64,000 nucleotides of DNA from Escherichia phage EK8: sequence record PQ805430.1; one strand, given 5' to 3'. Of this stretch, positions 45,359-60,200 are shown in pieces. The notes below the pieces were generated by a model that saw only the letters and a program-made list of their open reading frames with translations, was not told the origin of the DNA and ran no database searches. Within the stretch, counting starts at the first letter, position 1, and each line of letters opens with the position of its first letter. A program made the translations under genes and the position numbers.

Positions 45359-45391
45359 TTCTGGCTTCGGCTTGTGAGATGAGCTAAAGTA

Positions 45392-45422
45392 AGACCGGGG
45401 ATAATACCCCGGTCTTTTTTTA
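45392..45422 (+). terminator. rho-independent terminator after major capsid gene
   Basis: 9-bp stem AGACCGGGG/CCCCGGTCT, loop ATAATA, then TTTTTTT. Confidence 0.8.
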
Positions 45423-46033: not shown

Positions 46034-46801
46034 ATGGCAGAGATTATTACCCCACCAGACGTAACTAGTGATCCGCTAAACATCACGGATCTGACGTTAA
46101 AGACACTGGATGGTACTGGTGTTCTGGATCAGATGCTGGCTACGATGCGTGTGCATTTAGGTGAGCAGTTTGAAAAGGAACGAATCCAGGGTACTGAGTA
46201 TGCTGAGGTTTACCTCGGTGCATTCCAGTCAACGTTGGCTGCTGCCATTCAGTTCCTTCTGGCACGTCGTAAGTTGGGACTTGACCTTAAGCTACAGGAA
46301 GCACAAATCAGTCTGACCACTGCTCAGGAAGAACAGATTCGGGCTGAGATGCAGAAGATCCCTTATGAGATCCAGGCGCTCCAGAAACAACTTGAACTGG
46401 CTGATAAGCAGATTGCCCAGGCTGATAAGCAACTGGAACTGACCGAAGCTCAGATTCAGGTTCAACTGAAACAGCTCGACCTGATGGCTGAACAGCTCGA
46501 ACAGGCTAAAGCCCAGACTGCCTACTATGAGCAACGCACCATTACGGAGAAAGCTCAGACCTCGGCTGGTGTGGCTGCAACTGGTTCTGTTATTGGTACT
46601 CAGGTTGCACTGATGAATAAACAGGCTGATGGTTACGACCGTAACGCTGAACAGCAAGCTGCTCAGATTATCACTAACACCTGGAACGTTCGTCGTCAGA
46701 CTGATGAAGATACGTCTGCCAACACCACCAACAAACTGGATGATGCCTCTGTCGGGGCGGTTATTTCTAAACTGGCCGCAGGTATAAACGTGGTTCTGTA
46801 A
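46034..46801 (+). CDS. virion protein with coiled-coil (hypothetical)
   Basis: 255 aa; heptad-like Q/L/E repeats. Confidence 0.5.
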   Translation: MAEIITPPDVTSDPLNITDLTLKTLDGTGVLDQMLATMRVHLGEQFEKERIQGTEYAEVYLGAFQSTLAAAIQFLLARRKLGLDLKLQEAQISLTTAQEEQIRAEMQKIPYEIQALQKQLELADKQIAQADKQLELTEAQIQVQLKQLDLMAEQLEQAKAQTAYYEQRTITEKAQTSAGVAATGSVIGTQVALMNKQADGYDRNAEQQAAQIITNTWNVRRQTDEDTSANTTNKLDDASVGAVISKLAAGINVVL

Positions 46802-46827
46802 TCACTCTGGTTTAAAGGTATACTCAA

Positions 46828-46848
46828 GGGAGCTTCGGCTCCCTTTTC
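46828..46848 (+). terminator. rho-independent terminator
   Basis: GGGAGC-TTCG-GCTCCC followed by TTTTC. Confidence 0.6.
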
Positions 46849-46863
46849 ATTGTGAGGTTCCCG

Positions 46864-49638
46864 ATGGGATTATTCGGCAGTAAGAAAAAGACCTACCGTG
46901 ACCTGTCGTATTCCCGGCTTATCGAAGATGACTATCTGCCGGATGTTATCGGCCAGGCCATTACCACCTATGTACTTGACGAAGACAACACGTCCAGCCT
47001 TGCTGACCTGATGATTGAGTATGGGTGGAAAAGTAACGCAGTTAAATGGAATGCTGCTTATCGCTGGGCAAGTAAACCAGGTAAGTATGCTTATGGCGTG
47101 CCATCGGCATCCATCGTAAACCAGACGGATTTTACCGGGGCTGCATCCCTCAATGAGGTATTGGAGTCACTGACCGGGCAGACCAATCTGAATTACATCT
47201 ACAGCAAATTCGGCTCCATCAACATGCGTCATGCCATGTGGCAGTTGCTGATTAGCCAGTATTCCTATAACCCAACTACCAACCAGCTTAACGGGCTGAA
47301 TGCTTCGTTGGGGGCTACGGCATATCTGTACTCAGCCAAATCATTCTTCAATGCACAAGTCTGGTTACTGGCAGATCCGTTTACTCTGGAACACTGGGGC
47401 TTCTCCCCGGAATCCGGTGCAACGCAGAACCGTGCTCAGAACCTGGCCGCTGCTGATGTGCCCGATGGTACTGCCATTGGCCAAGAGAACTATACCCGTG
47501 TGGAATACACCTTCCGCTTCACTGGTTTGACCAAGACTGACGTTGTGACGACCACGGAAGTAGAGACTACCGTTCGTACACCGAATGAATCTGGTGGCTA
47601 CGACAATGAGACTACGACCACCAGCAGTGATTCTACAACCTCGACGACGGATAATAACGGGCAGACTCTGCCTCCAGCATCCAACATCATAAGCCAGGAT
47701 AAGACAGTAACGGATACCACTACCAATACTGAAACTGACGATCCTACCACCACCACGACTACTGACCCGGATACCGGCGTCATTACCATTGTGAAGACTA
47801 CCGTTAGCCGTAAGACTACGGTTACGACTTCCAGCAATGATGTGGTGGCATTTTTCAATATGGGCTTCGGCCAGTACGATTATTCTTCTGATCTGTTCGT
47901 CGATACCACAACGGTACTGGACGACAACGATATGAATAACTATGACCCGAATGCTGTACTGGATCCGTCCGGGGAAAGTGTGGGTGGGGATGATGACTAT
48001 TTCCAGGTGCTGTATACCTATGCCGTGGGTGATACTACACACATCGGTTATTTCACCTATCAGTATGGTTCCGGTAACTATCCAGACCTGGATGGCATCT
48101 CTGATACTACAGTAACGGATTTTGGTAAGTCATACCCTCGAATGTATTTCCGACTGAATGGCAACAAGTTATCCGATTCACGTTATGTGGATACGGCTGC
48201 TTATAAGACCTCCATCAAGTTCGGCAAGAAACTTGATATGGACTGGCTTGAGATCTTGGGCAAGATTTATGACAGTCTCAGTTCTTTGAAAAAAATTCGT
48301 GACGTACTGATGATCCAGTGTGTTCCGGCCAATACCAGTAACAAACTGGAGCAGGAATATCTGTTCCGTTATTTCAAAACGCTATATGGCATCCGACCTG
48401 TTATAACCGATTCGAATATCGGTACAACGACCGTAATGGGTGACGGTGGGGGTAGTTCTACCCGTCCAACCACTGATTACGATACGTATGCTGCTCATGC
48501 CGGTACGACTATGAAGTCCACTGATGGGACGATTAACGTCTACAACTCAATGGATGCTATCGGCTGGCGAAGCATTACAGGAACGATTGGCCCGGTCGGT
48601 TCAGTGGCCTCCGGGCGGGGTACTGGTACTAAGCTCGTAATTTACAAGCGTACTACCAGTGACGACCGAGGTAAGACCTCAACCCAGACGACATATGGCA
48701 CGGCAAACACCAGCTACCACTACTACCGTATGCAGGTTTCTGCCACGGTATACGAGGAAGTCCGGGTGTATGAGTTAAGTCATAAAGTCGATGTAGGTGG
48801 TAAAGGGGTAGGGCGATCCGGTGACAGTGATGAACTGATGGTTCCACTGGATTACGCCTTCCGTAAAGAGTTCTCCCCACATGAGCGTGAAACCCTCTAT
48901 GCACGGGCAACCCACATTCTGATCTGTACGGAATACACGGTTAAAACCAAATGGTATCAATCGGGTATTTTCAAAGCAGTAGTTGTGGTGATTGCTGTTG
49001 TGCTGTCCTGGTGGACAGGAGGTGCGTCTCTTACGCTCATCGGTGCGGTTACTGCTGCTGCTACAGCGATAGGGGCTATGATAGTTATGTCCCTGCTCAG
49101 CAAATATGTGTTCAGTAAGCTGGGTGGGGTATTTGCTATTATCGCTACCGTGGTAGCTATAGCTGTTGCTATATACACTGGTTATCTATATCTGACTAGC
49201 ACAACAGGGCCGTTCAGTGTTACAGCCACTCAAATGATGCAGGTAAGTAATGTTGCATTCCAAGCGGCTCAGTCTGCTCAGCAAGGTGCTATCGCCAAAG
49301 AAATGCAGAAAATTGCTACGCTGGAAGAAGAGATCGCCGATAAGCAAGAAGCGTTGAAAGTAGCCCAGAAGGAACTAACTAATCCTTACAATACCATCGA
49401 AGATGGTGTGTTTCTTAAAGCGCTTCAAGGTTACGCTTACCTGGGAGAGAAACCGCAGGAATACTATGCTCGTACCCTAAATACTAACATTGGTGCTGAA
49501 ACAAATAACCTGGTTGAAATGTATTACAGCCAATCTATCCAGCTTCCTTCGGATGTGGCTATTAACCAGCTTATACTGCAAAATATACAAAGACCGTTCG
49601 AACTCTTCAATGAGTTAAGCAATCTTATTAACCAATAG
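46864..49638 (+). CDS. large virion protein, Thr-rich with C-terminal TM helices (possible ejection protein)
   Basis: 924 aa from ATG 46864 (track start 46852 is GTG); long Thr/Ser-rich tract; hydrophobic VVVIAVVLSWW / LTLIGAVTAAATAIGAMIVM / VFAIIATVVAIAVAIY near C-terminus. Confidence 0.55.
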   Translation: MGLFGSKKKTYRDLSYSRLIEDDYLPDVIGQAITTYVLDEDNTSSLADLMIEYGWKSNAVKWNAAYRWASKPGKYAYGVPSASIVNQTDFTGAASLNEVLESLTGQTNLNYIYSKFGSINMRHAMWQLLISQYSYNPTTNQLNGLNASLGATAYLYSAKSFFNAQVWLLADPFTLEHWGFSPESGATQNRAQNLAAADVPDGTAIGQENYTRVEYTFRFTGLTKTDVVTTTEVETTVRTPNESGGYDNETTTTSSDSTTSTTDNNGQTLPPASNIISQDKTVTDTTTNTETDDPTTTTTTDPDTGVITIVKTTVSRKTTVTTSSNDVVAFFNMGFGQYDYSSDLFVDTTTVLDDNDMNNYDPNAVLDPSGESVGGDDDYFQVLYTYAVGDTTHIGYFTYQYGSGNYPDLDGISDTTVTDFGKSYPRMYFRLNGNKLSDSRYVDTAAYKTSIKFGKKLDMDWLEILGKIYDSLSSLKKIRDVLMIQCVPANTSNKLEQEYLFRYFKTLYGIRPVITDSNIGTTTVMGDGGGSSTRPTTDYDTYAAHAGTTMKSTDGTINVYNSMDAIGWRSITGTIGPVGSVASGRGTGTKLVIYKRTTSDDRGKTSTQTTYGTANTSYHYYRMQVSATVYEEVRVYELSHKVDVGGKGVGRSGDSDELMVPLDYAFRKEFSPHERETLYARATHILICTEYTVKTKWYQSGIFKAVVVVIAVVLSWWTGGASLTLIGAVTAAATAIGAMIVMSLLSKYVFSKLGGVFAIIATVVAIAVAIYTGYLYLTSTTGPFSVTATQMMQVSNVAFQAAQSAQQGAIAKEMQKIATLEEEIADKQEALKVAQKELTNPYNTIEDGVFLKALQGYAYLGEKPQEYYARTLNTNIGAETNNLVEMYYSQSIQLPSDVAINQLILQNIQRPFELFNELSNLINQ

Positions 49639-49646
49639 GAGGATTC

Positions 49647-50060
49647 ATGGGTGAATTAACTTCTCTCATCCAGAACCTGTTTGGTGGGGGTACTCAGGCA
49701 GACACGGTGCCTATTACTCCTAATATGGCAGGGGCAAGTATCAGCTCTAATGCCTCACCGAATGCGTTCAATACCCCGACTATTACTGACACCCTCAGTA
49801 ATGGTATGTCTGGTTTGCAGATCGGCCAGCTTGGACTGGGTGCTGCTAATGGCCTGCTCAATGGTTATCTTGGTTTCCAGAACCTCAGACTTGCTAAAAG
49901 CCAGGCACGTCAAGCTCAACAGAACTGGGATAAACAGTGGTCTGCCAATGTGAAGAACACTAATGCTGCGCTGTCTGACCGACAGGCTGCTCGTGTCGCT
50001 TCTAACCCTAATGCGTATGAGTCCGTGGACTCCTACATGAAAAAATACGGGATCAGCTAA
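49647..50060 (+). CDS. virion protein (hypothetical)
   Basis: 137 aa, Gly/Asn/Leu-rich. Confidence 0.5.
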   Translation: MGELTSLIQNLFGGGTQADTVPITPNMAGASISSNASPNAFNTPTITDTLSNGMSGLQIGQLGLGAANGLLNGYLGFQNLRLAKSQARQAQQNWDKQWSANVKNTNAALSDRQAARVASNPNAYESVDSYMKKYGIS

Positions 50061-51223
50061 TGGCAACTATTCGGACACAACAACTGGCTCCGGTAAACTT
50101 CGGTGATTCCAATCAACTCCTGCGGGTTGCACAACAGCTCATTCAGCAGGGTGCTGGTGGCCTCGTCGATACCTTCGGACAGTTACGTCAGAATGTTGTG
50201 GATCGAAACACTGCTAATGCGGTTAACCTGCTTACTGGTGCTCAGTCAACCGATGAGTTGGCTCAGCGTCAGGGGCAGGTTGCCCAGATTCTCCAGGCTG
50301 CAAATGGGGATATCAACAACGAAGCAGTGCAACGAGCGCAACTGACCATGCCGGATACACTGTTAGGCCGTCAGCTTAACACCAACCGGATTACGGAGTT
50401 CAACCAACAACAACATGACCAGCCTCTGTTAAACCAGGCTATGGCTCTGTACGCTGCTGGCGATAAAGCCGGTGCTCAGCAAATTCTGTCTGGTGTTCAG
50501 GGTGATGCTTCCAAAGCATTGACCTTTGGTGCCAGCCGGGAAGACGCTGCTGCTCAGCGTAGTCTGCAAGAACGTCAGCTTGGTATTCAGGCTGCTGGTT
50601 TGGCATTACGTCGTCAGGCCGCTGCACAACGTGCTGCTGCTGCGGGGAATAGCAGTAAACAGTTACAGGGGATGCTTAATAAGATCCTCGGTATCACTGG
50701 TGATGCGAATATCGCTTCTACCGAAGCTGCGGTCAAAGAAGAGAACGCTCGTTTGAAGGATGCGGAGAGTAACAACCCTCTGCTGAATCCGAACAACGAC
50801 TCTACTGCGGCTGCTGCTAAGATCACCAATGACAACCGGTCTGTATTGACCAGTTTGCTTCCTAACTCCTGGCGTAGTGACCGGGGCGGTCGTCTTTTAG
50901 GACTCATTGATCAACTGGATCCTGATAAGAAGCTCACCGAAAAAGAACGCACCAACATGCTTAAGGGCATGAACGATGTGTTTGAGAACGCGAACCTTAA
51001 CGAAGATCCAGATAAAGCTGCTTTAGACTGGGGTAAAAAAGCTCTGGATAACTTAGGTAAAGTTCGTACCCAGCGATTGCAAAATACTCAATCTCAGATT
51101 GATCAGAAGAAGGCTACCCGACTCGCTCAAATGCAGGTATTATTACAAAGCATGTTAGCGAACGGTAATGGTCAACTCGACCCAATGGCCCTTCAACTGC
51201 TCAATCAAGATTATGAGGAATAG
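50060..51223 (+). CDS. virion protein (hypothetical), Gln/Ala-rich
   Basis: 387 aa; immediately upstream of vRNAP gene. Confidence 0.5.
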   Translation: MATIRTQQLAPVNFGDSNQLLRVAQQLIQQGAGGLVDTFGQLRQNVVDRNTANAVNLLTGAQSTDELAQRQGQVAQILQAANGDINNEAVQRAQLTMPDTLLGRQLNTNRITEFNQQQHDQPLLNQAMALYAAGDKAGAQQILSGVQGDASKALTFGASREDAAAQRSLQERQLGIQAAGLALRRQAAAQRAAAAGNSSKQLQGMLNKILGITGDANIASTEAAVKEENARLKDAESNNPLLNPNNDSTAAAAKITNDNRSVLTSLLPNSWRSDRGGRLLGLIDQLDPDKKLTEKERTNMLKGMNDVFENANLNEDPDKAALDWGKKALDNLGKVRTQRLQNTQSQIDQKKATRLAQMQVLLQSMLANGNGQLDPMALQLLNQDYEE

Positions 51224-51225
51224 CA

Positions 51226-54200
51226 ATGGCAGACTCTCTGTTGTCCCAGGCTCTTAATGCTTTAAGCAACGGCGAGTTCACCAATCCTACCGAAGCTGTT
51301 TCCGTTCCGCAGGCTGCTCCCCAGCAGCCTGTCTCCAAAGATTCTCAAGTCCTTGACGCCACCCAACGTATTAATACTGGCTTTGCTGCTAAGGGCATCT
51401 ATCCGTCTATCTCTGGTGAAATCGAACGTTTAAATCAGCAAAAAGCAGGACGTGAACAAGTCGTTCAAGCATACGAAGAAGATATGCAACGTCTGGTTCC
51501 AACCAACGCTTTAGAGTCTGGTTCCCCGGTAATTCGCACCGGTGCCCAGATTACCAACGCAATGGCTGGTTTCGGCAGTTCAATTGCACGTATCGCTCTC
51601 CAGGTGAAAAACCTTAACAATCTCGGTGCTGTAGCTGCCGGGATGGACGGTGCCACCGATGAAGAAAAACTCGCCTTTAACCGTGAAGCCACTCAACGTG
51701 GTGCTGAGGCTGCTGCACTGGTAGGCAATAATGCCCGTCGTGTTCAGGATATCCTCGGCGGTGTTCCGGGTGCGTCTGCTAAGGCGATTGCCGAAGCATC
51801 TGAAATCCCGAATCAGCTTAAGGCTTACCCTTCTGATACCAACCTGCTTGACCGTGAGATTCCTCGTGGTGCAGCAAAAATTCCTTCTGCAACTCAGGAC
51901 GATTCTCTTCTGGGTTCGGTAGGTCAATACTTCAATAACCTGAATGATCGACTTGTCGGATCGGTAAATGGCATGACTGGTGAAGACCAGACCGGCCAGA
52001 CTGAATCTGTACGTGACCGACTGCAACGTGCTCAGACTGCCCTTACCCAAACTCAGAAATCCCTGGGTAACACTGCACAAGGCGTCGATAACGAATGGGG
52101 AACGGACTCCTGGGTTAACCGTGAACAAACTCAACGTATGGCTCAGCAACTGGAAGAAGAGAATAAAGATCTCTCCATCCCTGGTGCTATTGCTAACACT
52201 GTTGGGGAATATCTGGCTAACCCTTCACTGGTTATCCAATCTGCCGCAGAGTCCTTACCTTACGCACTTGGTCGTGTCGGTATCATTGCCGGTACTACCG
52301 GTCAGGCGGTACAAAACCAGACTGATGGTTACCGTGGTCAGGCAGATGGACAGCTTCCTACTGATGAGCAAATCAGTGATGTAACCCGACTCAATGCGTT
52401 GCATTCTGGTTTGAACTTTGTGGAGAACGTAGTCAATGCACGCGCTCTTACCGGTCTTAGCAATGCTGCTATCACTGCTCCACTTCGCCGTGGTGGTGAA
52501 GCACTGGCTGATACTGCCCTCGGACGAGCGATTACCAACGCTGTCGCTCGGAATGGCGTATCTCGTGCTGCTCTGGCAGCAGGGCGAGCAATTACTCCCG
52601 AACCTGTTAGGGAACTTGGCCTGACTATGGCCATTAACGGTCTGACCGAAGCTGCACAAAATCAGATCGAAACTCGCAACCTGCTCGGTGATGATCGCTG
52701 GGATACCGAAGGCAACATCAATGCTGGTGTGCTTGGTGCCCTGTCTGCTGGTGTAATGACTGGCCCATCTACTCTGGCGGCTGGTGCCGGTGCCGTAGGT
52801 GAGCGTATTGCCCGTGCTGCTCAGGAACGTCGTGACGCTGCTAACCCACAAGCTGCCGAAGCTCGTCGTGCTGCACAAGACGCTGCTAAGCCGTTTGAAG
52901 ATCTGACCAACCCGGAACATGCGGATTACAACCCGCAGGCTGCTATTCGCCAACAGACCAACGTGTTTGCTGATGAATCAACTACTCCTGAAGTACGTCA
53001 GGCTGCTATCGACCGTGCTCAGTCCGTCCGTGATTCTGCCGAACAGAACCTGGCTTCGGTTACTGATGAAGTACGCCAAATCCAGAAAGATATGGCTACC
53101 CGTCAGGAAATCGAACGTCGTCTGGAAGATATCCAGACCAACCCGGATTCTGAGTACAAAGGTAGCGAAGCTCAACTGACCACTATCCGTGACCAGATTG
53201 ATGAGCGTATGCCGGATGAAGCTGCTCAACAGGATCTGGTTTCCCGCTTCCAGGCTGCAAACGAAAACGTTGAACGTGTGCGTAGTGCCTACGATCAGTT
53301 TGAGAATGCTGCTGGTCTGCGTGAACGTCAGGCTCCAGAAGAAGCTCAGGCTCAGATGGATACTGCTACCAATCCTGATGCAACTCAGGAACAGGTTGAT
53401 ACGGCTGCTGACCATGTGGTTACGCACCCTATGCAGTACACCCCGGAACAACTCCGTACTCTGGCCGATGATACGACCAACCGTTTCAGCGACACTCAGC
53501 GTGAAGCGATTCGTAAACTGGCTGATGCCCGTGTTGCCCAGAACAACCTGAAAGATGATCTGCGTGTAAACCAGGATATTATGCAGGGTGGTAAGGGCTA
53601 CCGTTCCCTGGGTGAATACACCTCTGCTTATGCTGCTGCTATCCGTTCCGGTGATAAGACTATGGCTACCAACCTGCGTGAGCAGTTAGGTCGCTTCCAG
53701 GCTTCTCATGAACAGAAAGCTGCCGTTGCTCAGCAAATGATGGACTCTGGTAACTACGGCCAGCTTATCCGTCAGAACAGTCAGTGGGTGGCTAACGAAG
53801 GTAAGAAACTTCGTGGTAAAGATAAGACCCGTAACGGTGCTCTGGATATTCATTCTGGCTCCGGTCGTCTGGTTGCTCGTCTTCAAGAAGAAGCCGAAGC
53901 AATCCGTGCAACTTCCGCTGCCCTGGATGCAATGTCTCAGGCTCGTCCGGCTGCTCCCGCTACCGCTCCGCAGCCGTCCTCCCCTGCACCAGCGAACGAC
54001 GCAACCACAACGGTGGAGGCGAAGCCGGAACCGGCAGTGGTGGAGTCGGAAGCGACTGTTACCAAATCATCCCTCTCTCACTATGCCAATGACGGCGTAC
54101 TGACTCAGGATGCTGATGGTGATATGGCTCTGCGTCTGGATCAGTTCTCTCCGGCTGAACAACAGTTCCTGCGTGACAACAATATGGTTGATGCTCAGAA

Positions 54201-57200
54201 CATGGTTAAAGCTGCTTTCTTACGCCGTGCTGAACCGCGTAAAGATGACGCCCATAAACCACGTACTCTGAACCAGCAAGACCGCATTGCCCCGGCAGAA
54301 CAACAGACTCAGCAAGAGCAGGTACAGGCTCAGGATACCAATGAGAATGACCCTACTCCGGCCAGCACTGTAGAAACCGACACCAACGTAACTACCGATC
54401 AGACTACGGCAACGAAGACTGACGAGAACACGAAGGCAGACGGTGCTACCCGTGTCCTACGTCCAGAAGGTAAATCTCTGGAGACTGCCCGTACCGAAGA
54501 ACGAGCTAAGCCATTCTCAGAACAGAACCTTGTTCTCACTGGTTTCGTTCAGCGTGTCCGTGAAGGTTTCGTTAACCCACTGGTTACCGTTGAAAACTTC
54601 ATGTCCAGCGTTATGGATAAAGCTGACTGGTCTGGTCGCTTCACCGAAGTGAACCGTTACCTTGCTCAGCCGATGAACGCTGCCCAGAAGAATCTGGTCG
54701 GTATGTTCACCAAATTCCATAAAGCAGTGGAAGGTGATATCGATCCTGCTATTAAACAGAAGATCGGTAAAACCCGTGGTGGTCTGGATCGCTCTGCTTA
54801 TAACTACCAGGATTTTGTCCAGTTTCTTACCACTGACGGTAAACTGGATGAAAACACGAAGACGGCCCTGACCGCCTCTATGTTCACCTGGCTTGCAGAG
54901 AACGGTAACAAGCTCATCGCCACTCGTGACGATATGGCTGGCCTGTTCCATATGGATAAAGGTGAAGTACCGGTAGAGATCCATAATCGCTTCTCTGAGA
55001 TCGGTTCTTCTCAGCGTGCTGTTATCCAGTCCCTTGGCCAACGTGCTTACCAGATGCTGGGCTTCAAGGTACTGAAAGACGTTGACCCTAACCGTGCTGG
55101 ACGTATGCAGCAAGCTCTCGGCATGTACGCAATGCACGTTATGATGAAACGTGGCTACCTGGAGCAGACAACTATGACTGCTCGTGAGTACGCCGACGTT
55201 ATCACTACTGGTTTGGATCCTGAAGCTGCTCAGGCTAAACGTGCAGAGTTTGCTCGTGACTTCCTGAATGGTGAGTCCATCGATAAAGCGAAAGAGACAT
55301 TCAACTTTGTTCGTGTACCACGTAAAGAAGTAAACGGTAAACTCGTACCGGCAGATAACATTGCCCGTATCGTTGAAGCCAACAAAGGGACTTCCGGGGT
55401 TATGAGCAAGCTGTTTAGCTTTGACTCATCCCAGACTTTCCCGTTGACTAAGAAGCCAGGTAAATTCATTCAGAATACCGTAGGTGACTTTGGTCAGCAG
55501 GTTCCTTCTGAATTGGCAGAACGTCTGACTAAAGCCCAGCAACAACCGTACCGGATCAATGAGTCCCTGGTTAACGCCATGAACACGATCCGCAATGTGG
55601 ATGAAGCTGCATTGCTGCACATGATGGGTGTTCGTACTGAGACAGAAACTCCGTTCATGCACGCTCGTGACCGTATCGGGCAGCAGGCCAAAAACGACGA
55701 TATCATTCGTGCTCTGGCTAATGCTGATGAGGTAATGGGTACTCTGGATTCCATCGACCAGCAGATCTATATGCCGCTGGCAGTATGGAGTAACAACCGT
55801 GTCGGCGTAGCGTCCAACATGCTCAACCCGCAGGGGAACAAAGTTCACCGTGCAATGGTAGGCATGGAAGCACACCGTGTTGATATCCCGGTAAACCAGG
55901 CACCAATCGACGCCAACGGTAACATCACTGAGTACGGCCAGTTCTTACTGACTGTGGCTCAGGGTATGGAAGAGGCGCCGATCAAGAAACCAGGCACTAC
56001 TGATAAGATGCCTACGGTTGATAAAGTGACTGGTGGTACTTATCTGCAAGGTATGCAGGAATACCTGAAAAGTGACAGCGTTCGTGCTGGCATTAAAGCC
56101 ATGCAGAATATCGTTGAGGGTAACTCCACTCCGCGTGATATCGAAACCGTTAAGCAAACCGTTGCCGAATTTGGCATGGGGCCACACTCCTTCCAGTCAC
56201 TCCATGCACTGGCTCTGGTTAACCAGGCTCGTGAACAGGGTGCTGAAAAAGTGCAGGTTGCTATCGGTGGCGAATCAGATGGTGTCACCAACGGGCCGAT
56301 CCTTACCAATGTGCTCTATGGTACGGCAGACACTGACCTTCTCGCTCGTGGTGGCCTTTACACTGCTGACGCTGGTGTTACCAACGTACCGCAGTACCGC
56401 GAACAAGGTGGGCAGGACTACTACCAGTTATTGGGGACAGCTCAGAAGGAAGCATGGGATGCCATGTATCCTCCGACGACTGGCCGGGTAACGGATCAGA
56501 ACCAGAAGTTCCGTCGTGCAATTGATTACTTATCTCCTGGTTTCGGCTCTCGTTCGAAAGCCAAAGTACAGGCTACCCCATTCAACTACGGTTCCGGTAT
56601 GGACTCGCTCAAGCGAGCAAGTGCCAGAGACACCATTGATAGTGTCTACGGTCATATCACTGATATTGCCGAAGCCTATAGCCGTTCCAAAGTTGAGGGT
56701 GATTTTGCTCGCCATAAACTGGAGAAAGCAATCGAGATCGTACTGGCCCAGGGCAAGACGCTAGGGATTAAAGTTCCCGCATTTTCCGGCCTGGGTAAAA
56801 CGGAATCACTGTTAACCACCGAATTGCCACGTCCAATTGTGGACGCGATTATGCAGATCGATATGGCTATCCGTGGTGAAGCATCCGAGACTGCGATTGA
56901 GCGTGTTGCTGCTCACTACATCAAAACCCGTGACACTAACACTGCGATTACTAATGCAGCGTTTGAAGTGGGCAAAGTTGTACGTGACCGTGCAGAGGCT
57001 CTGGCTCTGGAACAGGCAGTTAAAGACGGGCAAGTAGGTTCCATCAACGATATCGCCGTAGAAGGCTTATCGACTGATGCAAAAGCTAACCTGTCTGAAC
57101 AACTGCGTGAAGCCAGTGCTATCGTCCCTACCGCTACCGGATCCCTTTCCAAAAATAAACTGGAATCAGGTTACGTGGCTGCTAAGGTCGGTACTACCTT

Positions 57201-60200
57201 CAAAACCAATGACCCAACCACCGAGGTATATGCCTCGTTCCGTGAGGGTGCTAACCCTACTGGTACTGGCTTAACCAACACCAAACCGACGACCTTTAAG
57301 GACGTAAGATCTGGCGCTCAGGTTAAAGAACAGATCGCTCCGGGTGTGTCTACAAGTGCATTGGTTGTGCAGGGTACTGATGCTGCAATCTCAACTCGTG
57401 TTATCGCTGAGCGTCCGGCTCAGAACTTCCATGATGCGAACCTGTTCGCTATTACGGATATGATTGAAGGTGCCAAAGCGCAGAACAAAGCCATGTGGGA
57501 TACAGTGGTCGGTTATGACTCTCAGTTAGCGAATACCGAAGCATTAATCCGCACCCTAGAAGGTGTTACCCAACAAGACGGATTAACGTCACTGGATTGG
57601 ATTAATATTGCCGGGTCTTTGCAACAACTGGCTTTCAAGGCTGAACTAATTGGATCCCCTAAAGAGTCCGTATCGGCGGTAGCCGTACTTGGACGGGTAG
57701 TCGGTGATGCTTATAACCGTGAGATTGCCAAGCTCAACACACTCAACGAAGTTGAGTATGTAAACCAGTATGGTTATGAGGGTGGTGAATACCAGGTTAC
57801 TGCTGCCGACCGTAAAGCTCTGGCTGACAAAATTGACTCTCTACGCATATCACGGGATAAAGCGGTTGATAAGGCAATGACTCTTGGCGGTGAACTAAAT
57901 ACCCTGCTACAGCAAGGTACAACCACATCCAAGCGTAAAGCCGATGCTGTTAATGCTGCTCAACGCCGTCAGGCTATTGAACAAGCTGCTGCTGATAGCG
58001 TACCGGTTACCCGTGATGCCAAAGGCAAGAACGCTCTTGAGCGTTTCCTGACTGAAAGCAAAGACGGCACCGTTAATGCTAAAGACCTGATGAACTTTAC
58101 CGTTAAGTCCCTGGCTTCCGGTCGTACTGATGGTTCAGCACTGCAAAGCCGTATGCGTACCACTTACAGCGAACTTGCTAAAGTGCTCGCAGCGACTCTG
58201 CCGGAAAACCTGACCGTTAATATCCTGTCTGCTCAACATAATCCAAAAGGGGTTATGGGTGCTGAGCAGAACGTTAACTCACGAGCATGGTTTTATAGTG
58301 ACGGTAAGGTAAACCAGATCAACATCAAGATGGATGGCCCGGAAGCACCGGGGCTGGAAGTTGTGCTGCATGAAATGCTTCACGCTGCCACTGCCCGTGC
58401 TCTGGATGCTGCTCGCCGTGATCCTAAAGCTAACCCGGCTCTGACCGAAATCGTTGGCCGACTGGAATCACTGCGTAGCGAGATCGAACAGTCCGTACAG
58501 AGTATGCCTCAGTTTGCACCGGCAGTCCGTAACGTGGACGAGTTAATCTCGTGGGGTATGACTAATCCGGCATTTCAGCAACATCTTGATGGTTTGCAGT
58601 CCTCCATGTACCCACGTCAACGCGAAGGTGTACGTGGTCGTCTGGGTTCCATGTTTAAACAGTTTGCCAACACTGTGCTGCGTGCGGTCTACGCCTTTAC
58701 TGGTCGTAAGCCTTCCGCTAAACAGATGACGGCAATGGAAGCCCTAATTCTGGATACTGCTGACGTACTCCAGACTGCCACGGTTAATCCGGGCAATGCT
58801 GGTAACGTTAATCTGGCAATGGCCTCATCTACCCGTGCAGCACAAACTGCCGGACAGTACACCCATCGCCAGATATTCGATGCTCTGTCGTCCTCGACTG
58901 CTGGTAAGCGGAACACTTCTGCCTTTACCGGAAATCTGGGTAAGATCATCGAAAATGTATCGGATAAACTGTTTAGTCAAATTGGTGGTGATCACCTGAC
59001 CAACCTTCCGGCAGGTCACGGTTATACACCGGGCCAGGTATGGGCGAATGCTCTTACCGGGGGCAAGGCACCGTTCACTACCAAAGCATTGGCTGCTGGT
59101 TTCCACATGACTGACCAGGAAGCATTCGCTATCGAGTCCATTGAGACTGCGGTTGCTGCTGCTCTGGATTCTGGTTTCGGTACTGCTGTGAACCGTGAGA
59201 TCCGTAAATCCTGGGAAGCTGCCCGTAAGCAGGTAACCCCGGAACAGTTCCATAACGGTAACTGGAATACGGCTACCCCGGCAGAGAAAGCTGCTGCACA
59301 AGCAAAGTGGGATCACCTGTTCAAACTGGAAGCCAGCCAGAACGGTAAGAACCGCTACCTCGCACAGTTTGTGGCAATGACTCTGGGTCATGAAGAAACC
59401 AGTAAACTGATGGGCTTCACCAATGAAGTTGCCGATGCTAACGCTCCGGTCACTCCGTTCGAGAAAGCTGCTGCCTTCTTTAACCATTCGGTTAACTGGG
59501 CATCGGGTTACCTGACTCGCACCAACAATGGCCAACTGGTAAACCAGAAGGCTCAGGCACTGGCTCAACAGTTGATTGAAATCGACTTGAAGAACCGTGA
59601 CAAATCCGTTGATGCACTTGAGAAAGCGTTTATCTACGTCAGCGATCTGGGTGAGAAAGCTGGTAATAAAATCTGGGATGCTGCTCATGCAACTGCTGAT
59701 GCGAAACTGATTCGTGAGAACCCTCTCGGTATCGTTCGTATGGCCGGGTCTATTACCCGTCTGGCTGCTAAGCGTAATCTGGATGTGCTGAGCGATACCA
59801 TTCGTCAGGTACGTGATATGAATAACCCGAATACCGCTGATGGTTGGGCTGCTCAAATCCTGTCTGATATCGCTAACCCGGATAAAGTACGTAGTGCGTT
59901 CGAATCGCTGCAACGACACACGAACCTCATTGAACAACGTCGCCGTAATTTCGCAGAAATTACTCGTGGCAACGTGATGGGAGCGTTCGAAAATAACGGT
60001 GAGTATCTGACCAACGAAGATAAAACTGCGTTGTCTTATACCCTGCTGCGAACCGAAGCACACTCACTGCTCAATACCCGCTCCCTGGATGACGTTCAGC
60101 AACTGGTTTCCAGCAAAGCTAAACGTAATGCAGAGATTCGTAATCTGGAGCAAATCGTATTGGCAGATCCGAATGGTAATGATATGGTTATCCGCGCTAA

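What the first reader, a model, noticed from the sequence alone, without database searches (positions are those of the whole stretch)
46864..49638. 924-aa Thr-rich virion protein with C-terminal transmembrane helices
This late gene combines a long Thr/Ser/Asp-rich tract with three strongly hydrophobic helices near the C-terminus followed by a coiled-coil-like tail. Its position three genes upstream of the vRNAP makes it a candidate for the channel that passes the polymerase and DNA across the host envelope.
Basis: inference. Interest (0 to 1): 0.4.

Follow-up and report, generated by a model that had tools for sequence, protein, structure and literature searches.

The report
Tail plug of an N4-like phage

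Summary
Window 46864-49638 (+) is a 924-aa ORF. It has a Thr-rich tract (aa ~205-340), three strongly hydrophobic helices (aa ~701-778) and a long predicted C-terminal helix. It is the third gene upstream of a 3696-aa vRNAP. The "coiled coil" was not demonstrated.

The window is a Cbunavirus-like Schitoviridae phage, about 86% nt identical to Horatius, Possum and CB1. The protein is the ortholog of the tail plug N4 gp53 / DEV gp74:
- PDB profile hits: 9ZE4_M (E 3e-124) and 9YFT_FA (E 2e-33).
- Foldseek: 9ZE4_M (E 2.7e-30).
- Full-length hhalign against the N4 family: E 2.8e-51.
- Gene order is identical: tube, plug, gp52-like, gp51-position, vRNAP.

In N4 one gp53 copy seals the dodecameric tube. 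A "hydrophobic knot" corks it. This knot aligns with the query's aa 28-56 and with the first hydrophobic helix plus the start of the second. The remaining C-terminus lies in the lumen as a proposed "ripcord".

AlphaFold2 predicts the Thr-rich tract as a long beta-sheet (pLDDT 84-93) at the site of N4's beta-feather. Sequence homology of that insert is not detectable.

The channel interpretation is not supported: the protein is the gate, not the conduit. Post-release membrane insertion of the helices remains untested.

The parts
46864..49638 (+). Tail plug gene (N4 gp53 / DEV gp74 ortholog), 924 aa plus stop
   Evidence: PHROG 2220 E 3e-200; 94% aa identity to CB1_80 and Horatius_00086
46853..46856 (+). 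Shine-Dalgarno-like GAGG, 7 nt before the ATG
   Evidence: read directly from the sequence
46864..46893 (+). Family-wide conserved N-terminus MGLFGSKKKT; function unknown
   Evidence: M1, G2 and K7 invariant in A1; F4 invariant in A2; same start in N4 and DEV; MG[LIVMF]F in 81 of 132 distant full-length relatives
46945..47031 (+). aa 28-56: N-terminal helices aligned to N4 gp53 residues 29-56, one half of the hydrophobic knot
   Evidence: alignment; AF2 helices H28-38 and H46-55; knot residues from PMC13434306
46864..47463 (+). aa 1-200: N-terminal part of the globular plug core
   Evidence: region-wise hhalign against the N4 family, prob 96.5%; phmmer domain 1 to 9ZE4_M residues 1-190
47476..47883 (+). 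aa 205-340: Thr-rich insert, predicted as a long antiparallel beta-sheet (feather-like protrusion)
   Evidence: AF2 strands 210-240, 246-263, 275-291 and 307-334 with pLDDT 84-93; insert length fixed at 200-210 aa in 47 relatives of 47-96% identity; no detectable profile similarity to the N4 feather (prob 0.4%)
47884..47997 (+). aa 341-378: conserved acidic (Asp-rich) loop, predicted disordered
   Evidence: D up to 25%; pLDDT 40-44; 62% mean identity among close relatives and many near-invariant positions
47998..48948 (+). aa 379-695: second part of the globular plug core
   Evidence: phmmer domain 2 to 9ZE4_M; region-wise hhalign of aa 379-520 against the N4 family, prob 98.5%; pLDDT mostly 80-94
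48949..48975 (+). aa 696-704: KWYQSGIFK, the signature motif that opens the hydrophobic region (identical in N4; PWYASGFFK in DEV)
   Evidence: K694, W697, Y698 and F703 invariant in A1
48964..49197 (+). aa 701-778: three hydrophobic, Gly/Ala-rich helices. The first helix and the start of the second align to N4 knot residues 670-716; the rest corresponds to the luminal segment unresolved in N4
   Evidence: TMHMM = 3 in the orthologs
   Evidence: AF2 H788-839 at pLDDT below 50; weak heptad signal
49381..49635 (+). aa 840-924: polar helical C-terminal tail. Together with aa 660-839 it forms the C-terminal module conserved across the family
   Evidence: C-terminal module hits 1180 50%-identity clusters (383 at E <= 1e-10), always at the protein C-terminus; hhalign prob 99.9% against the N4 family
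46034..46801 (+). Neighbour: tail tube gene (N4 gp54 / DEV gp75 homolog), the dodecamer that the plug seals
   Evidence: PDB 9BGM gp75 E 1.6e-41 and N4 Gp54 E 1.9e-15
46826..46845 (+). Terminator-like hairpin between the tube and plug genes
   Evidence: 8-bp stem, TTCG loop, weak T tail
49647..50060 (+). Neighbour: gp52-like ejection protein (137 aa)
   Evidence: PDB 8VXQ_A 'N4 gp52-like protein' E 8e-12 and N4 16.5 kDa protein E 3e-4
50060..51223 (+). Neighbour: virion protein in the gp51 position (387 aa); no detectable homology to N4 gp51 or DEV gp72
   Evidence: all-alpha AF2 model with no fold match; the ortholog CB1_78 is MS-confirmed
51226..62316 (+). Neighbour: virion RNA polymerase (3696 aa)
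   Evidence: ORF; annotated vRNAP in Horatius and CB1 at the syntenic position

Best explanation
The gene encodes the tail plug of a Cbunavirus-like N4-type podophage.

Proposed mechanism, carried over from the solved N4 and DEV structures:
- One copy caps the distal opening of the dodecameric tail tube, which is the product of the gene immediately upstream.
- A globular core (aa ~1-200 plus ~379-695) sits outside the tube.
- A ~135-aa Thr-rich insert forms a long, solvent-exposed beta-sheet protrusion.
- The N-terminal helices (aa 28-56), together with the first hydrophobic helix and the start of the second (aa ~705-735), fold into a hydrophobic knot that corks the tube.
- The remaining ~190 residues (the rest of the second helix, the third helix, and the amphipathic and polar tail) run up the tail lumen, where copies of the gp52-like ejection protein are stored.
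- When a receptor-binding tail protein engages the host, the plug is displaced sideways. Its luminal C-terminus is pulled out like a ripcord. The gp52-like protein, the gp51-position protein, the vRNAP and the DNA then leave.

What is shown here: homology, synteny, fold of the core, position and conservation of the hydrophobic module, and the beta-sheet prediction for the insert.

What is inferred from the N4 and DEV structures: copy number, location at the tail tip, the knot, the luminal tail, and the unplugging sequence.
For: Sequence:
- phmmer to 9ZE4_M (DEV 'N4 gp53-like protein') E 8.6e-51, and to 9YFT_FA (N4 Gp53) E 3.8e-11.
- Profile A1 gives 3.2e-124 and 1.7e-33 for the same two chains.
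- hhalign of this clade against the N4 clade: prob 100%, E 2.8e-51, 801 columns end to end.
- By region: N-core 96.5%, middle 98.5%, C-terminus 99.9%.

Fold:
- Foldseek of the AF2 model against the PDB gives one significant hit, 9ZE4_M 'Asymmetric Tail Gating Complex of Pseudomonas Phage DEV' (E 2.7e-30, prob 1.0, TM-score normalised to the target 0.57).
- Significant BFVD hits are almost all proteins of N4-like or unclassified podophages; rank 14 (prob 0.10) is a myophage protein.

Synteny:
- The order portal, gp58, gp57, MCP, gp55, tube, plug, gp52, gp51-position, vRNAP is the same as in N4 and DEV.

Knot mapping:
- N4 residues 670-716 align to query ~705-735, directly after the shared KWYQSGIFK motif. 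N4 residues 29-56 align to query 28-56.

C-terminal module:
- It is found in 1180 clusters, always C-terminal.

Literature:
- N4 gp53 is a monomeric plug with a knot, a feather and a luminal C-terminus described as a 'ripcord' (PMC13434306).
- DEV gp74 is the plug and is held by a receptor-binding fibre (PMC12892993).
Against: - The ortholog CB1_80 was not among the ten proteins detected by MS in CB1 virions, although its neighbours CB1_78, 79 and 81 were.
- No homolog of either known plug-holding partner (N4 gp64/gp65, DEV gp54-56) is present in the 64-kb window. The trigger side of the mechanism is therefore unknown for this genus.
- AF2 gives pLDDT below 50 for aa 695-924, so neither the knot nor the luminal conformation could be reproduced here.
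- The N4 and DEV models were themselves built from AlphaFold models fitted into 3.6 A and 8.5 A focused maps.
Confidence: 0.88

Rival explanations
1. The protein is an ejected internal virion protein, and its three C-terminal transmembrane helices form the conduit, or a main part of it, through which vRNAP and DNA cross the host envelope.
For: - Three segments have TM-grade hydrophobicity, and TMHMM gives 3 in the orthologs.
- In this phage, in N4 and in DEV, the plug is the only protein of the vRNAP/gp51/gp52/gp53 cassette with KD19 above 1.6.
- Horatius annotates the ortholog as 'putative internal virion protein'.
Against: - The solved orthologs are single-copy and mostly external at the tail tip. 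The plug is retained on empty N4 particles.
- The resolved hydrophobic residues form a cork inside the tube.
- Recombinant gp51 and gp52 of N4 form pores in bilayers, and DEV gp72:gp73 form a nonameric post-ejection complex (PMC13434306, PMC11445570).
- A gp52 homolog is encoded next door.
- Three helices from one chain cannot line a ~35 A channel (inference).
Confidence: 0.04
2. Dual-role plug. The protein is the plug as above. After displacement, its luminal C-terminal helices refold from the knot into membrane-spanning helices and insert into the outer membrane. There they anchor the tail or nucleate the gp52-like pore, acting as a pilot or anchor and not as the channel itself.
For: - The hydrophobic block is the best-conserved part of the protein, with 74% mean identity among close relatives, and is conserved family-wide.
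- It is longer than the part seen in the N4 knot. The third helix, which is the most hydrophobic in this protein (aa 753-771, KD 2.51), lies beyond the knot-aligned region.
- It has a Gly/Ala-rich small-xxx-small composition.
- It is the first polypeptide to leave the lumen in the published ripcord model.
Against: - There is no experimental indication of membrane insertion.
- The N4 plug re-seats on empty particles in vitro. This argues that the knot is a stable fold that can re-form, not a one-shot fusion-type spring.
- Conservation is equally well explained by packing inside a conserved tube.
Confidence: 0.07
3. The Thr/Ser/Asp-rich tract is an intrinsically disordered, mucin-like or glycosylated linker, or a slippage-prone hypervariable region, and not a folded domain.
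For: - Extreme composition: up to 47% Thr per 40 aa.
- The adjacent Asp-rich stretch (aa 341-378) is predicted disordered.
Against: - AF2 predicts 17-31-residue beta-strands with pLDDT 84-93 across aa 210-334.
- Insert length is fixed at 200-210 aa over 47 relatives down to 47% identity, with 53% mean identity.
- There is no tandem DNA repeat and Thr codons are mixed.
- N4 has an experimentally seen beta-feather at the same site.
Confidence: 0.05

Closest known systems
Pseudomonas phage DEV gp74 (= LIT1 gp74, 'N4 gp53-like protein'), tail plug; PDB 9ZE4 chain M
   Same: - Closest solved relative (phmmer E 8.6e-51; profile E 3.2e-124; Foldseek E 2.7e-30).
- Same N-terminus (MGLFSSKKKT).
- Same core and same WY.SG.FK motif followed by three hydrophobic helices and a polar tail.
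- Same position, between the tube gene and the gp52-like gene.
   Different: - DEV gp74 is 740 aa and lacks the ~135-aa Thr-rich beta-sheet insert. The anchor-to-anchor distance is 74-81 aa in DEV-type relatives, against 206 aa here.
- Its holding partners gp56, gp55 and gp54 have no homolog in this window.
Escherichia phage N4 gp53, tail plug of the tail-gating complex; PDB 9YFT chain FA
   Same: - Full-length profile homology (E 2.8e-51).
- Similar length (885 aa against 924 aa).
- A long beta-sheet protrusion at the same insertion site.
- Identical KWYQSGIFK motif.
- The hydrophobic knot residues align.
- About 160-190 C-terminal residues lie beyond the knot.
   Different: - Only the C-terminal third is detectable by single-sequence search.
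- The feather inserts show no detectable sequence similarity (hhalign prob 0.4%, equal to controls).
- N4's sheath partner gp65/gp64 is absent here.
Tail needle or plug of P22-like podophages (gp26), and siphophage tail-tip plugs that are displaced laterally
   Same: Functional analogy only: a distal element that seals the DNA channel and is removed on receptor engagement. The N4 and DEV papers themselves cite this analogy.
   Different: - There is no sequence or fold relationship (no such hit).
- gp26 is a trimeric coiled-coil needle. This protein is a monomeric globular cap with a hydrophobic cork.
Podophage ejection proteins (N4 gp51/gp52, DEV gp72/gp73, T7 gp14/15/16)
   Same: They are encoded in the same cassette next to the vRNAP gene, are hydrophobic or membrane-active, and are involved in the same delivery step.
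   Different: Those proteins are multi-copy, are stored in the capsid or lumen, are expelled, and oligomerise into the conduit. This protein is homologous to none of them. The gp52 homolog is the next gene.

Membership tests
Schitoviridae tail plug (N4 gp53 / DEV gp74) | Significant sequence homology to the structurally characterised plug proteins over the whole length | tested here: met
   E 3.2e-124 and 1.7e-33; hhalign E 2.8e-51, 801 columns; N-core, middle and C-terminus each significant
Schitoviridae tail plug (N4 gp53 / DEV gp74) | Globular core with the fold of the solved plug | tested here: met
   The AF2 model (core pLDDT 80-94) matches 9ZE4_M at E 2.7e-30, prob 1.0, TM-score normalised to the target 0.57. 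The next hit has E above 3e-3.
Schitoviridae tail plug (N4 gp53 / DEV gp74) | [quoted passage not shown] | tested here: met
Schitoviridae tail plug (N4 gp53 / DEV gp74) | Hydrophobic knot elements: N-terminal helices (~29-56) plus a hydrophobic C-proximal segment after the WYQSGIFK motif | tested here: met
   Both segments are present and align, and helices are predicted. The knotted 3D arrangement itself could not be reproduced (pLDDT below 60).
Schitoviridae tail plug (N4 gp53 / DEV gp74) | C-terminal ~160-190 residues beyond the knot (luminal 'ripcord' tail) | tested here: met
   aa ~736-924 are present and homologous (hhalign prob 99.9%). The module is always C-terminal in 1180 clusters. 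Luminal location is not testable here.
Schitoviridae tail plug (N4 gp53 / DEV gp74) | One copy per virion, located at the distal tail tip and sealing the dodecameric tube | not testable with these tools
   Known for N4 and DEV from cryo-EM. In CB1 virion MS the ortholog was not detected.
Schitoviridae tail plug (N4 gp53 / DEV gp74) | Plug held by a receptor-binding protein (N4 gp65/gp64 sheath or DEV gp56-55-54 fibre) to form a tail-gating complex | tested here: not met
   phmmer with N4 gp64-66 and DEV gp53-56 against all window ORFs of at least 60 aa found nothing. The partner differs between N4 and DEV too, so this does not define the plug family. It leaves the gating partner in Cbunavirus unknown.
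N4-type beta-feather subtype of the plug | Long beta-sheet protrusion inserted between the N-core and the middle domain | tested here: met
   AF2 strands of 17-31 residues, pLDDT 84-93, at the same insertion site
N4-type beta-feather subtype of the plug | Insert homologous in sequence to the N4 feather | tested here: not met
   Insert-only hhalign prob 0.4%, E 0.17, the same as the negative controls
Podophage ejection proteins forming the DNA-ejectosome channel (N4 gp51/gp52, DEV gp72/gp73) | Homology to gp51/gp72 or gp52/gp73 | tested here: not met
   This ORF matches only the plug proteins. The gp52 homolog is the ORF at 49647-50060.
Podophage ejection proteins forming the DNA-ejectosome channel (N4 gp51/gp52, DEV gp72/gp73) | Multi-copy, stored inside the capsid or lumen, lost from emptied particles, oligomerises into a pore | not testable with these tools
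   For the N4 ortholog the opposite is reported: a single copy, retained on empty particles.

The most novel reading that the evidence does not exclude
The plug has a second role beyond sealing the tube. Its conserved C-terminal module carries the only classical TM-grade helices in the whole vRNAP/gp51/gp52/gp53 cassette of this phage, of N4 and of DEV. On unplugging, this module would be released from the tube lumen and insert into the host outer membrane, where it would anchor the tail or prime the gp52-type pore. In parallel, the exposed insertion site (Thr-rich beta-sheet here, N4 feather, Big_6 Ig domain in other relatives, nothing in DEV) would be a swappable host-surface-sensing module that tunes the trigger to the host.
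Probability: 0.12. Interest if true: 0.55.

Novelty: new member of a known kind. Interest (0 to 1): 0.22.

Why it matters
The practical result is a correction of annotation. Public records call this protein 'hypothetical' or 'putative internal virion protein', PHROG 2220 lists it as 'unknown function', and no Pfam family covers it. It can now be named the tail plug across Cbunavirus and related Klebsiella, Kosakonia and Erwinia phages, some of which are being considered for soft-rot biocontrol.

Two modest additions to what is published:
- The plug has a fixed insertion site that carries different exposed modules in different clades. The site holds a Thr-rich beta-sheet here, the N4 feather (not detectably homologous to it), an Ig-like Big_6 domain in other relatives, and nothing in most of the family.
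- The known plug-holding partners are absent here, so Cbunavirus must gate its tail through a third, unidentified partner.

Neither point changes the general picture of N4-type genome delivery.

Tried and rejected
- Pfam scan of the protein gave no family. PHROGs gave only 'unknown function'.
- PDB hit 9L9P_A 'putative tail assembly protein' (E 0.018) covers only the hydrophobic stretch 694-756. I treated it as composition-driven.
- Weak Foldseek hits to the f1 secretin pIV and to staphylococcal beta-barrel pore-forming toxins (E 4e-3 to 0.2, prob at most 0.54) come from the long beta-hairpins. The Thr-rich strands have no alternating hydrophobic face, so I rejected a beta-pore reading.
- I tested whether the Thr-rich insert is homologous to the N4 feather. 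It is not detectably so.
- I tested for a coiled coil by heptad occupancy. The signal was weak.
- I tried to show that the gp51-position protein (50060-51223) is a gp51/gp72 or T7 gp15-type ejection protein. There was no sequence match. The AF2 model is all-alpha with helices up to 87 residues but has pLDDT 64, and Foldseek found nothing (E above 1). The result is inconclusive.
- I searched the window for homologs of the DEV and N4 plug-holding proteins and found none.
- I checked for tandem repeats or slippage in the Thr tract and found none.
Full report
OBSERVATION

Window 46864-49638 (+) is an uninterrupted 924-codon ORF.
- The mechanical ORF begins at a GTG at 46852. The ATG at 46864 is the real start because it is preceded by GAGG at a 7-nt spacing and yields MGLFGSKKKT, the same N-terminus as N4 gp53 and DEV gp74.
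- Thr makes up 12.6% of the protein and is concentrated in aa ~201-340, at 30-47% per 40-aa window. An Asp-rich stretch follows at aa 341-380.
- The maximum of 42 Thr in 120 aa was never reached in 5000 shuffles (mean 22.8 +/- 2.0).
- The tract is not a DNA tandem repeat and uses mixed Thr codons.
- Hydropathy shows three adjacent peaks at aa 708-726, 723-741 and 753-771 (KD19 1.85-2.51). Summed insertion free energies with a Hessa-type scale recalled from memory are 0.93, 0.08 and -1.28. Nothing in aa 1-690 exceeds KD 0.69.
- The 80-aa mean KD of 1.63 was never reached in 5000 shuffles (0.45 +/- 0.15).
- The CB1/CB3/CB4 paper lists 3 TMHMM v2.0 helices for the 94%-identical orthologs (PMC6027278 supplementary tables).
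- The 'coiled-coil-like tail' is weaker. AF2 predicts one 52-residue helix (788-839), but with pLDDT below 50, and the best heptad register has only 56% hydrophobic a/d positions.
- The gene is the third upstream of a 3696-aa vRNAP ORF.

WHAT THE WINDOW IS

The region is about 86% nt identical to the Pectobacterium phages Horatius, Possum, CB1, CB3, CB4 and Nepra (genus Cbunavirus, family Schitoviridae). The protein is about 94% identical to their 'hypothetical' or 'putative internal virion' proteins. LIT1 annotates its homolog as 'N4 gp53-like'.

WHAT THE PROTEIN IS

1. Sequence
- phmmer against PDB sequences finds 9ZE4 chain M ('N4 gp53-like protein', 740 aa; E 8.6e-51, two stretches covering aa 1-194 and 378-896).
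- It also finds 9YFT chain FA (N4 'Gp53', 885 aa; E 3.8e-11, over aa 627-896).
- A profile of 53 relatives raises these to 3.2e-124 and 1.7e-33.
- Profile-profile comparison of this clade with a 38-sequence N4-clade alignment gives probability 100%, E 2.8e-51, with 801 aligned columns from the first residue almost to the last.

2. Fold
- An AlphaFold2 model built from the 53-sequence alignment has mean pLDDT 70.6, with the core mostly at 80-94.
- It has a single significant PDB match, 9ZE4_M 'Asymmetric Tail Gating Complex of Pseudomonas Phage DEV' (Foldseek E 2.7e-30, prob 1.0, TM-score normalised to the target 0.57).
- Thirteen of the 14 BFVD matches with E <= 1e-3 have probability 1.0 and are proteins of N4-like or unclassified podophages. 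The 14th (prob 0.10) is a myophage protein.

3. Synteny
- The order portal, gp58-like, gp57-like, MCP, gp55-like, tube, this gene, gp52-like, gp51-position, vRNAP is that of N4 gp59 to gp50 and DEV gp80 to gp71.
- The upstream ORF matches the solved tube proteins DEV gp75 (E 1.6e-41) and N4 gp54 (E 1.9e-15).
- The downstream ORF matches the solved gp52-type ejection protein (8VXQ_A, E 8e-12).

WHAT THE FAMILY DOES (literature)

Bellis et al. (Nat Commun 2026; PMC13434306) report the following for N4:
- Residues 29-56 and 670-716 form a 'hydrophobic knot' of six short helices that corks the tube base.
- The last ~160 residues disappear into the tail lumen.
- The receptor-binding sheath protein gp65 holds the plug core, giving a 12:6:1 'tail-gating complex'.
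- The plug is still present on empty particles.
- The authors propose that its displacement pulls the C-terminus out as a 'ripcord' for the luminal gp52 copies.
- The conduit itself is assigned to gp52, gp51 and the vRNAP N-terminal domain. The abstract and the discussion of that paper differ on which of gp51 and gp52 is the outer-membrane part.

The DEV study (mBio 2026; PMC12892993) maps the DEV plug to gp74, held laterally by the gp56-gp55-gp54 receptor-binding fibre.

Orthologs were detected in virions by MS in LIT1/PEV2 (gp74, 5 peptides; PMC3715699), N4 and Moo19 (gp70; PMC11654681).

MAPPING ONTO THIS PROTEIN

- The N4 knot segment 670-716 begins directly after the motif KWYQSGIFK, which is identical here at aa 696-704.
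- That segment aligns to query aa ~705-735, which is the first hydrophobic helix and the start of the second.
- N4 residues 29-56 align to query aa 28-56, where AF2 places two helices.
- The rest of helix 2, helix 3 (the most hydrophobic in this protein), the long amphipathic helix and the polar tail (aa ~736-924) correspond to the part that is unresolved and luminal in N4.
- A search of 1.84 billion cluster representatives with aa 660-924 found 1180 clusters at E <= 1e-3 (383 at E <= 1e-10). In those listed (the top 150) the module sits at the C-terminus, mostly of 700-800-aa proteins.
- The module is therefore a universal, position-fixed feature of a large family and not a chance hydrophobic patch.
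- It is also the best-conserved part of the protein among close relatives (74% identity, against 53% for the Thr tract).

THE THR-RICH TRACT

- AF2 predicts aa 210-334 as very long antiparallel strands (210-240, 246-263, 275-291, 295-300, 307-334) with pLDDT 84-93.
- It sits between the same conserved anchors as the N4 feather.
- The anchor-to-anchor length (R190-Y396) is 200-210 aa in all 47 relatives from 47% to 96% identity. It is 74-81 aa in DEV-type proteins, and 163-194 aa in three distant relatives, where Pfam sees a Big_6 Ig-like domain. Only one of those three (P0063) reaches the Pfam cut-off.
- Insert-only profile comparison with the N4 feather region gives probability 0.4%, the same as the negative controls. 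The flanking N-core (96.5%), middle (98.5%) and C-terminal (99.9%) regions are clearly homologous.
- The tract is therefore best read as a folded, solvent-exposed beta-sheet protrusion occupying a swappable insertion site. It is architecturally like the N4 feather but not demonstrably homologous to it.
- The high Thr content fits a sheet exposed on both faces (inference from general protein chemistry).
- Its function is unknown in N4 as well.

MECHANISM AND HOW SURE

I commit to the plug, cork and ripcord mechanism described above, with confidence about 0.88 that this is the protein's role.
- Shown here: homology, core fold, synteny, presence and alignment of both knot segments, the conserved C-terminal module, and the beta-sheet prediction.
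- Inferred from the N4 and DEV structures: single copy, tail-tip location, the knot, the luminal tail, and lateral displacement on receptor binding.

POINTS AGAINST, AND GAPS

- CB1 virion MS listed ten proteins, including the tube, gp52-like, gp51-position and vRNAP proteins, but not CB1_80. This fits a one-copy, partly very hydrophobic protein analysed from gel bands, but it is not positive evidence.
- No homolog of N4 gp64, gp65 or gp66, or of DEV gp53-56, exists in the window. Cbunavirus adsorption is ascribed to an SGNH tail fibre plus a connector (PMC9569702). What holds and releases the plug is therefore unknown.

- Right: this is a virion protein with TM-type helices that is involved in letting vRNAP and DNA out.
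- Wrong: that it is the channel. It is the gate.
- A residual version cannot be excluded. In this phage, N4 and DEV alike, the plug is the only member of the vRNAP/gp51/gp52/gp53 set with KD19 above 1.6. Here the gp52-like protein reaches 0.83, the gp51-position protein 0.52, and the vRNAP 1.19.
- Post-release insertion of its C-terminal helices into a host membrane, as an anchor or pilot, therefore remains a testable idea. I rate it at about 0.07-0.12.

COMPARISON AND NOVELTY

- The protein passes every testable membership criterion of the gp53/gp74 tail-plug family.
- It differs from DEV gp74 by the large insert, and from N4 gp53 by an insert of unrelated sequence and by lacking the gp65 partner.
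- It is a new member of a known kind.
- The family's function was published only in 2026, and the public annotations of the close relatives checked here (hypothetical, 'putative internal virion protein') still lack it, so the main value is correct naming.
- Two small new points are the modular insertion site and the missing gating partner in Cbunavirus.

Interest: 0.22.

Noticed in passing
window 46864-46893 (aa 1-10): The N-terminus MGLF(G/S)SKKKT is almost invariant across the whole plug family. It is identical in style in N4, DEV and this phage, and MG[LIVMF]F occurs in 81 of 132 distant relatives. It resembles a eukaryotic N-myristoylation/polybasic motif. Residues 1-8 are not modelled in the N4 structure, and no function has been proposed.
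   Followed up: partly
window 46826-46845 and 45391-45416: Terminator-like hairpins lie after the tail tube gene (AAGGGAGC-TTCG-GCTCCCTT with a weak T tail, just before the plug gene) and after the major capsid gene (10-bp stem, strong T run). Partial termination would fit the falling stoichiometry of capsid, then 12 tube copies, then 1 plug copy.
   Followed up: no
window 50060-51223: The 387-aa virion protein in the position of N4 gp51 / DEV gp72 has no detectable sequence or fold similarity to them. It is Gln/Ala-rich, is predicted all-alpha with helices up to 87 residues, and lacks any hydrophobic segment (max KD19 0.52). N4 gp51 is reported to have predicted membrane-spanning helices (MemBrain, PMC13434306), although its KD19 maximum here is also only 0.65. 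It may be a non-orthologous replacement of the periplasmic-tunnel ejection protein.
   Followed up: partly
window 49647-50060, 50060-51223, 51226-62316; L001, L002: In this phage, N4 and DEV, the plug is the only protein of the vRNAP/gp51/gp52/gp53 cassette with classical TM-grade hydrophobic segments (KD19 above 1.6). The gp52-type proteins have only weak Gly-rich hydrophobic stretches (KD19 0.83-1.42).
   Followed up: partly
window 47884-47997 (aa 341-378): This is a conserved Asp-rich loop (D up to 25%, many near-invariant positions) that AF2 leaves disordered (pLDDT ~40). It lies between the beta-sheet insert and the core. It could be a partner-binding or metal-binding segment.
   Followed up: no
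relatives P0061, P0063, P0065: In distant plug homologs, Pfam sees a Big_6 Ig-like domain at the insertion site that holds the Thr-rich sheet here. Only P0063 reaches the Pfam cut-off (29.7 against 27.6 bits); P0061 (26.4 bits) and P0065 (16.7 bits) fall below it. Most family members (700-800 aa) have no large insert. The site behaves as a swappable exposed module.
   Followed up: partly
whole window (1-64000): No homologs of N4 gp64, gp65 or gp66, or of DEV gp53-gp56, were found. The protein that holds the plug and transmits receptor binding in Cbunavirus is therefore unidentified. At about 86% nt identity to known Cbunavirus genomes, the window appears to be a new species-level relative.
   Followed up: partly
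PMC13434306 (literature): The N4 paper's abstract assigns gp51 to the outer-membrane complex and gp52 to the periplasmic tunnel, while its discussion and Fig. 8 legend assign them the other way round. Its DEV gp72/gp73 correspondences also look swapped relative to the protein lengths in the DEV record (gp73 is 155 aa, gp72 is 521 aa).
   Followed up: no
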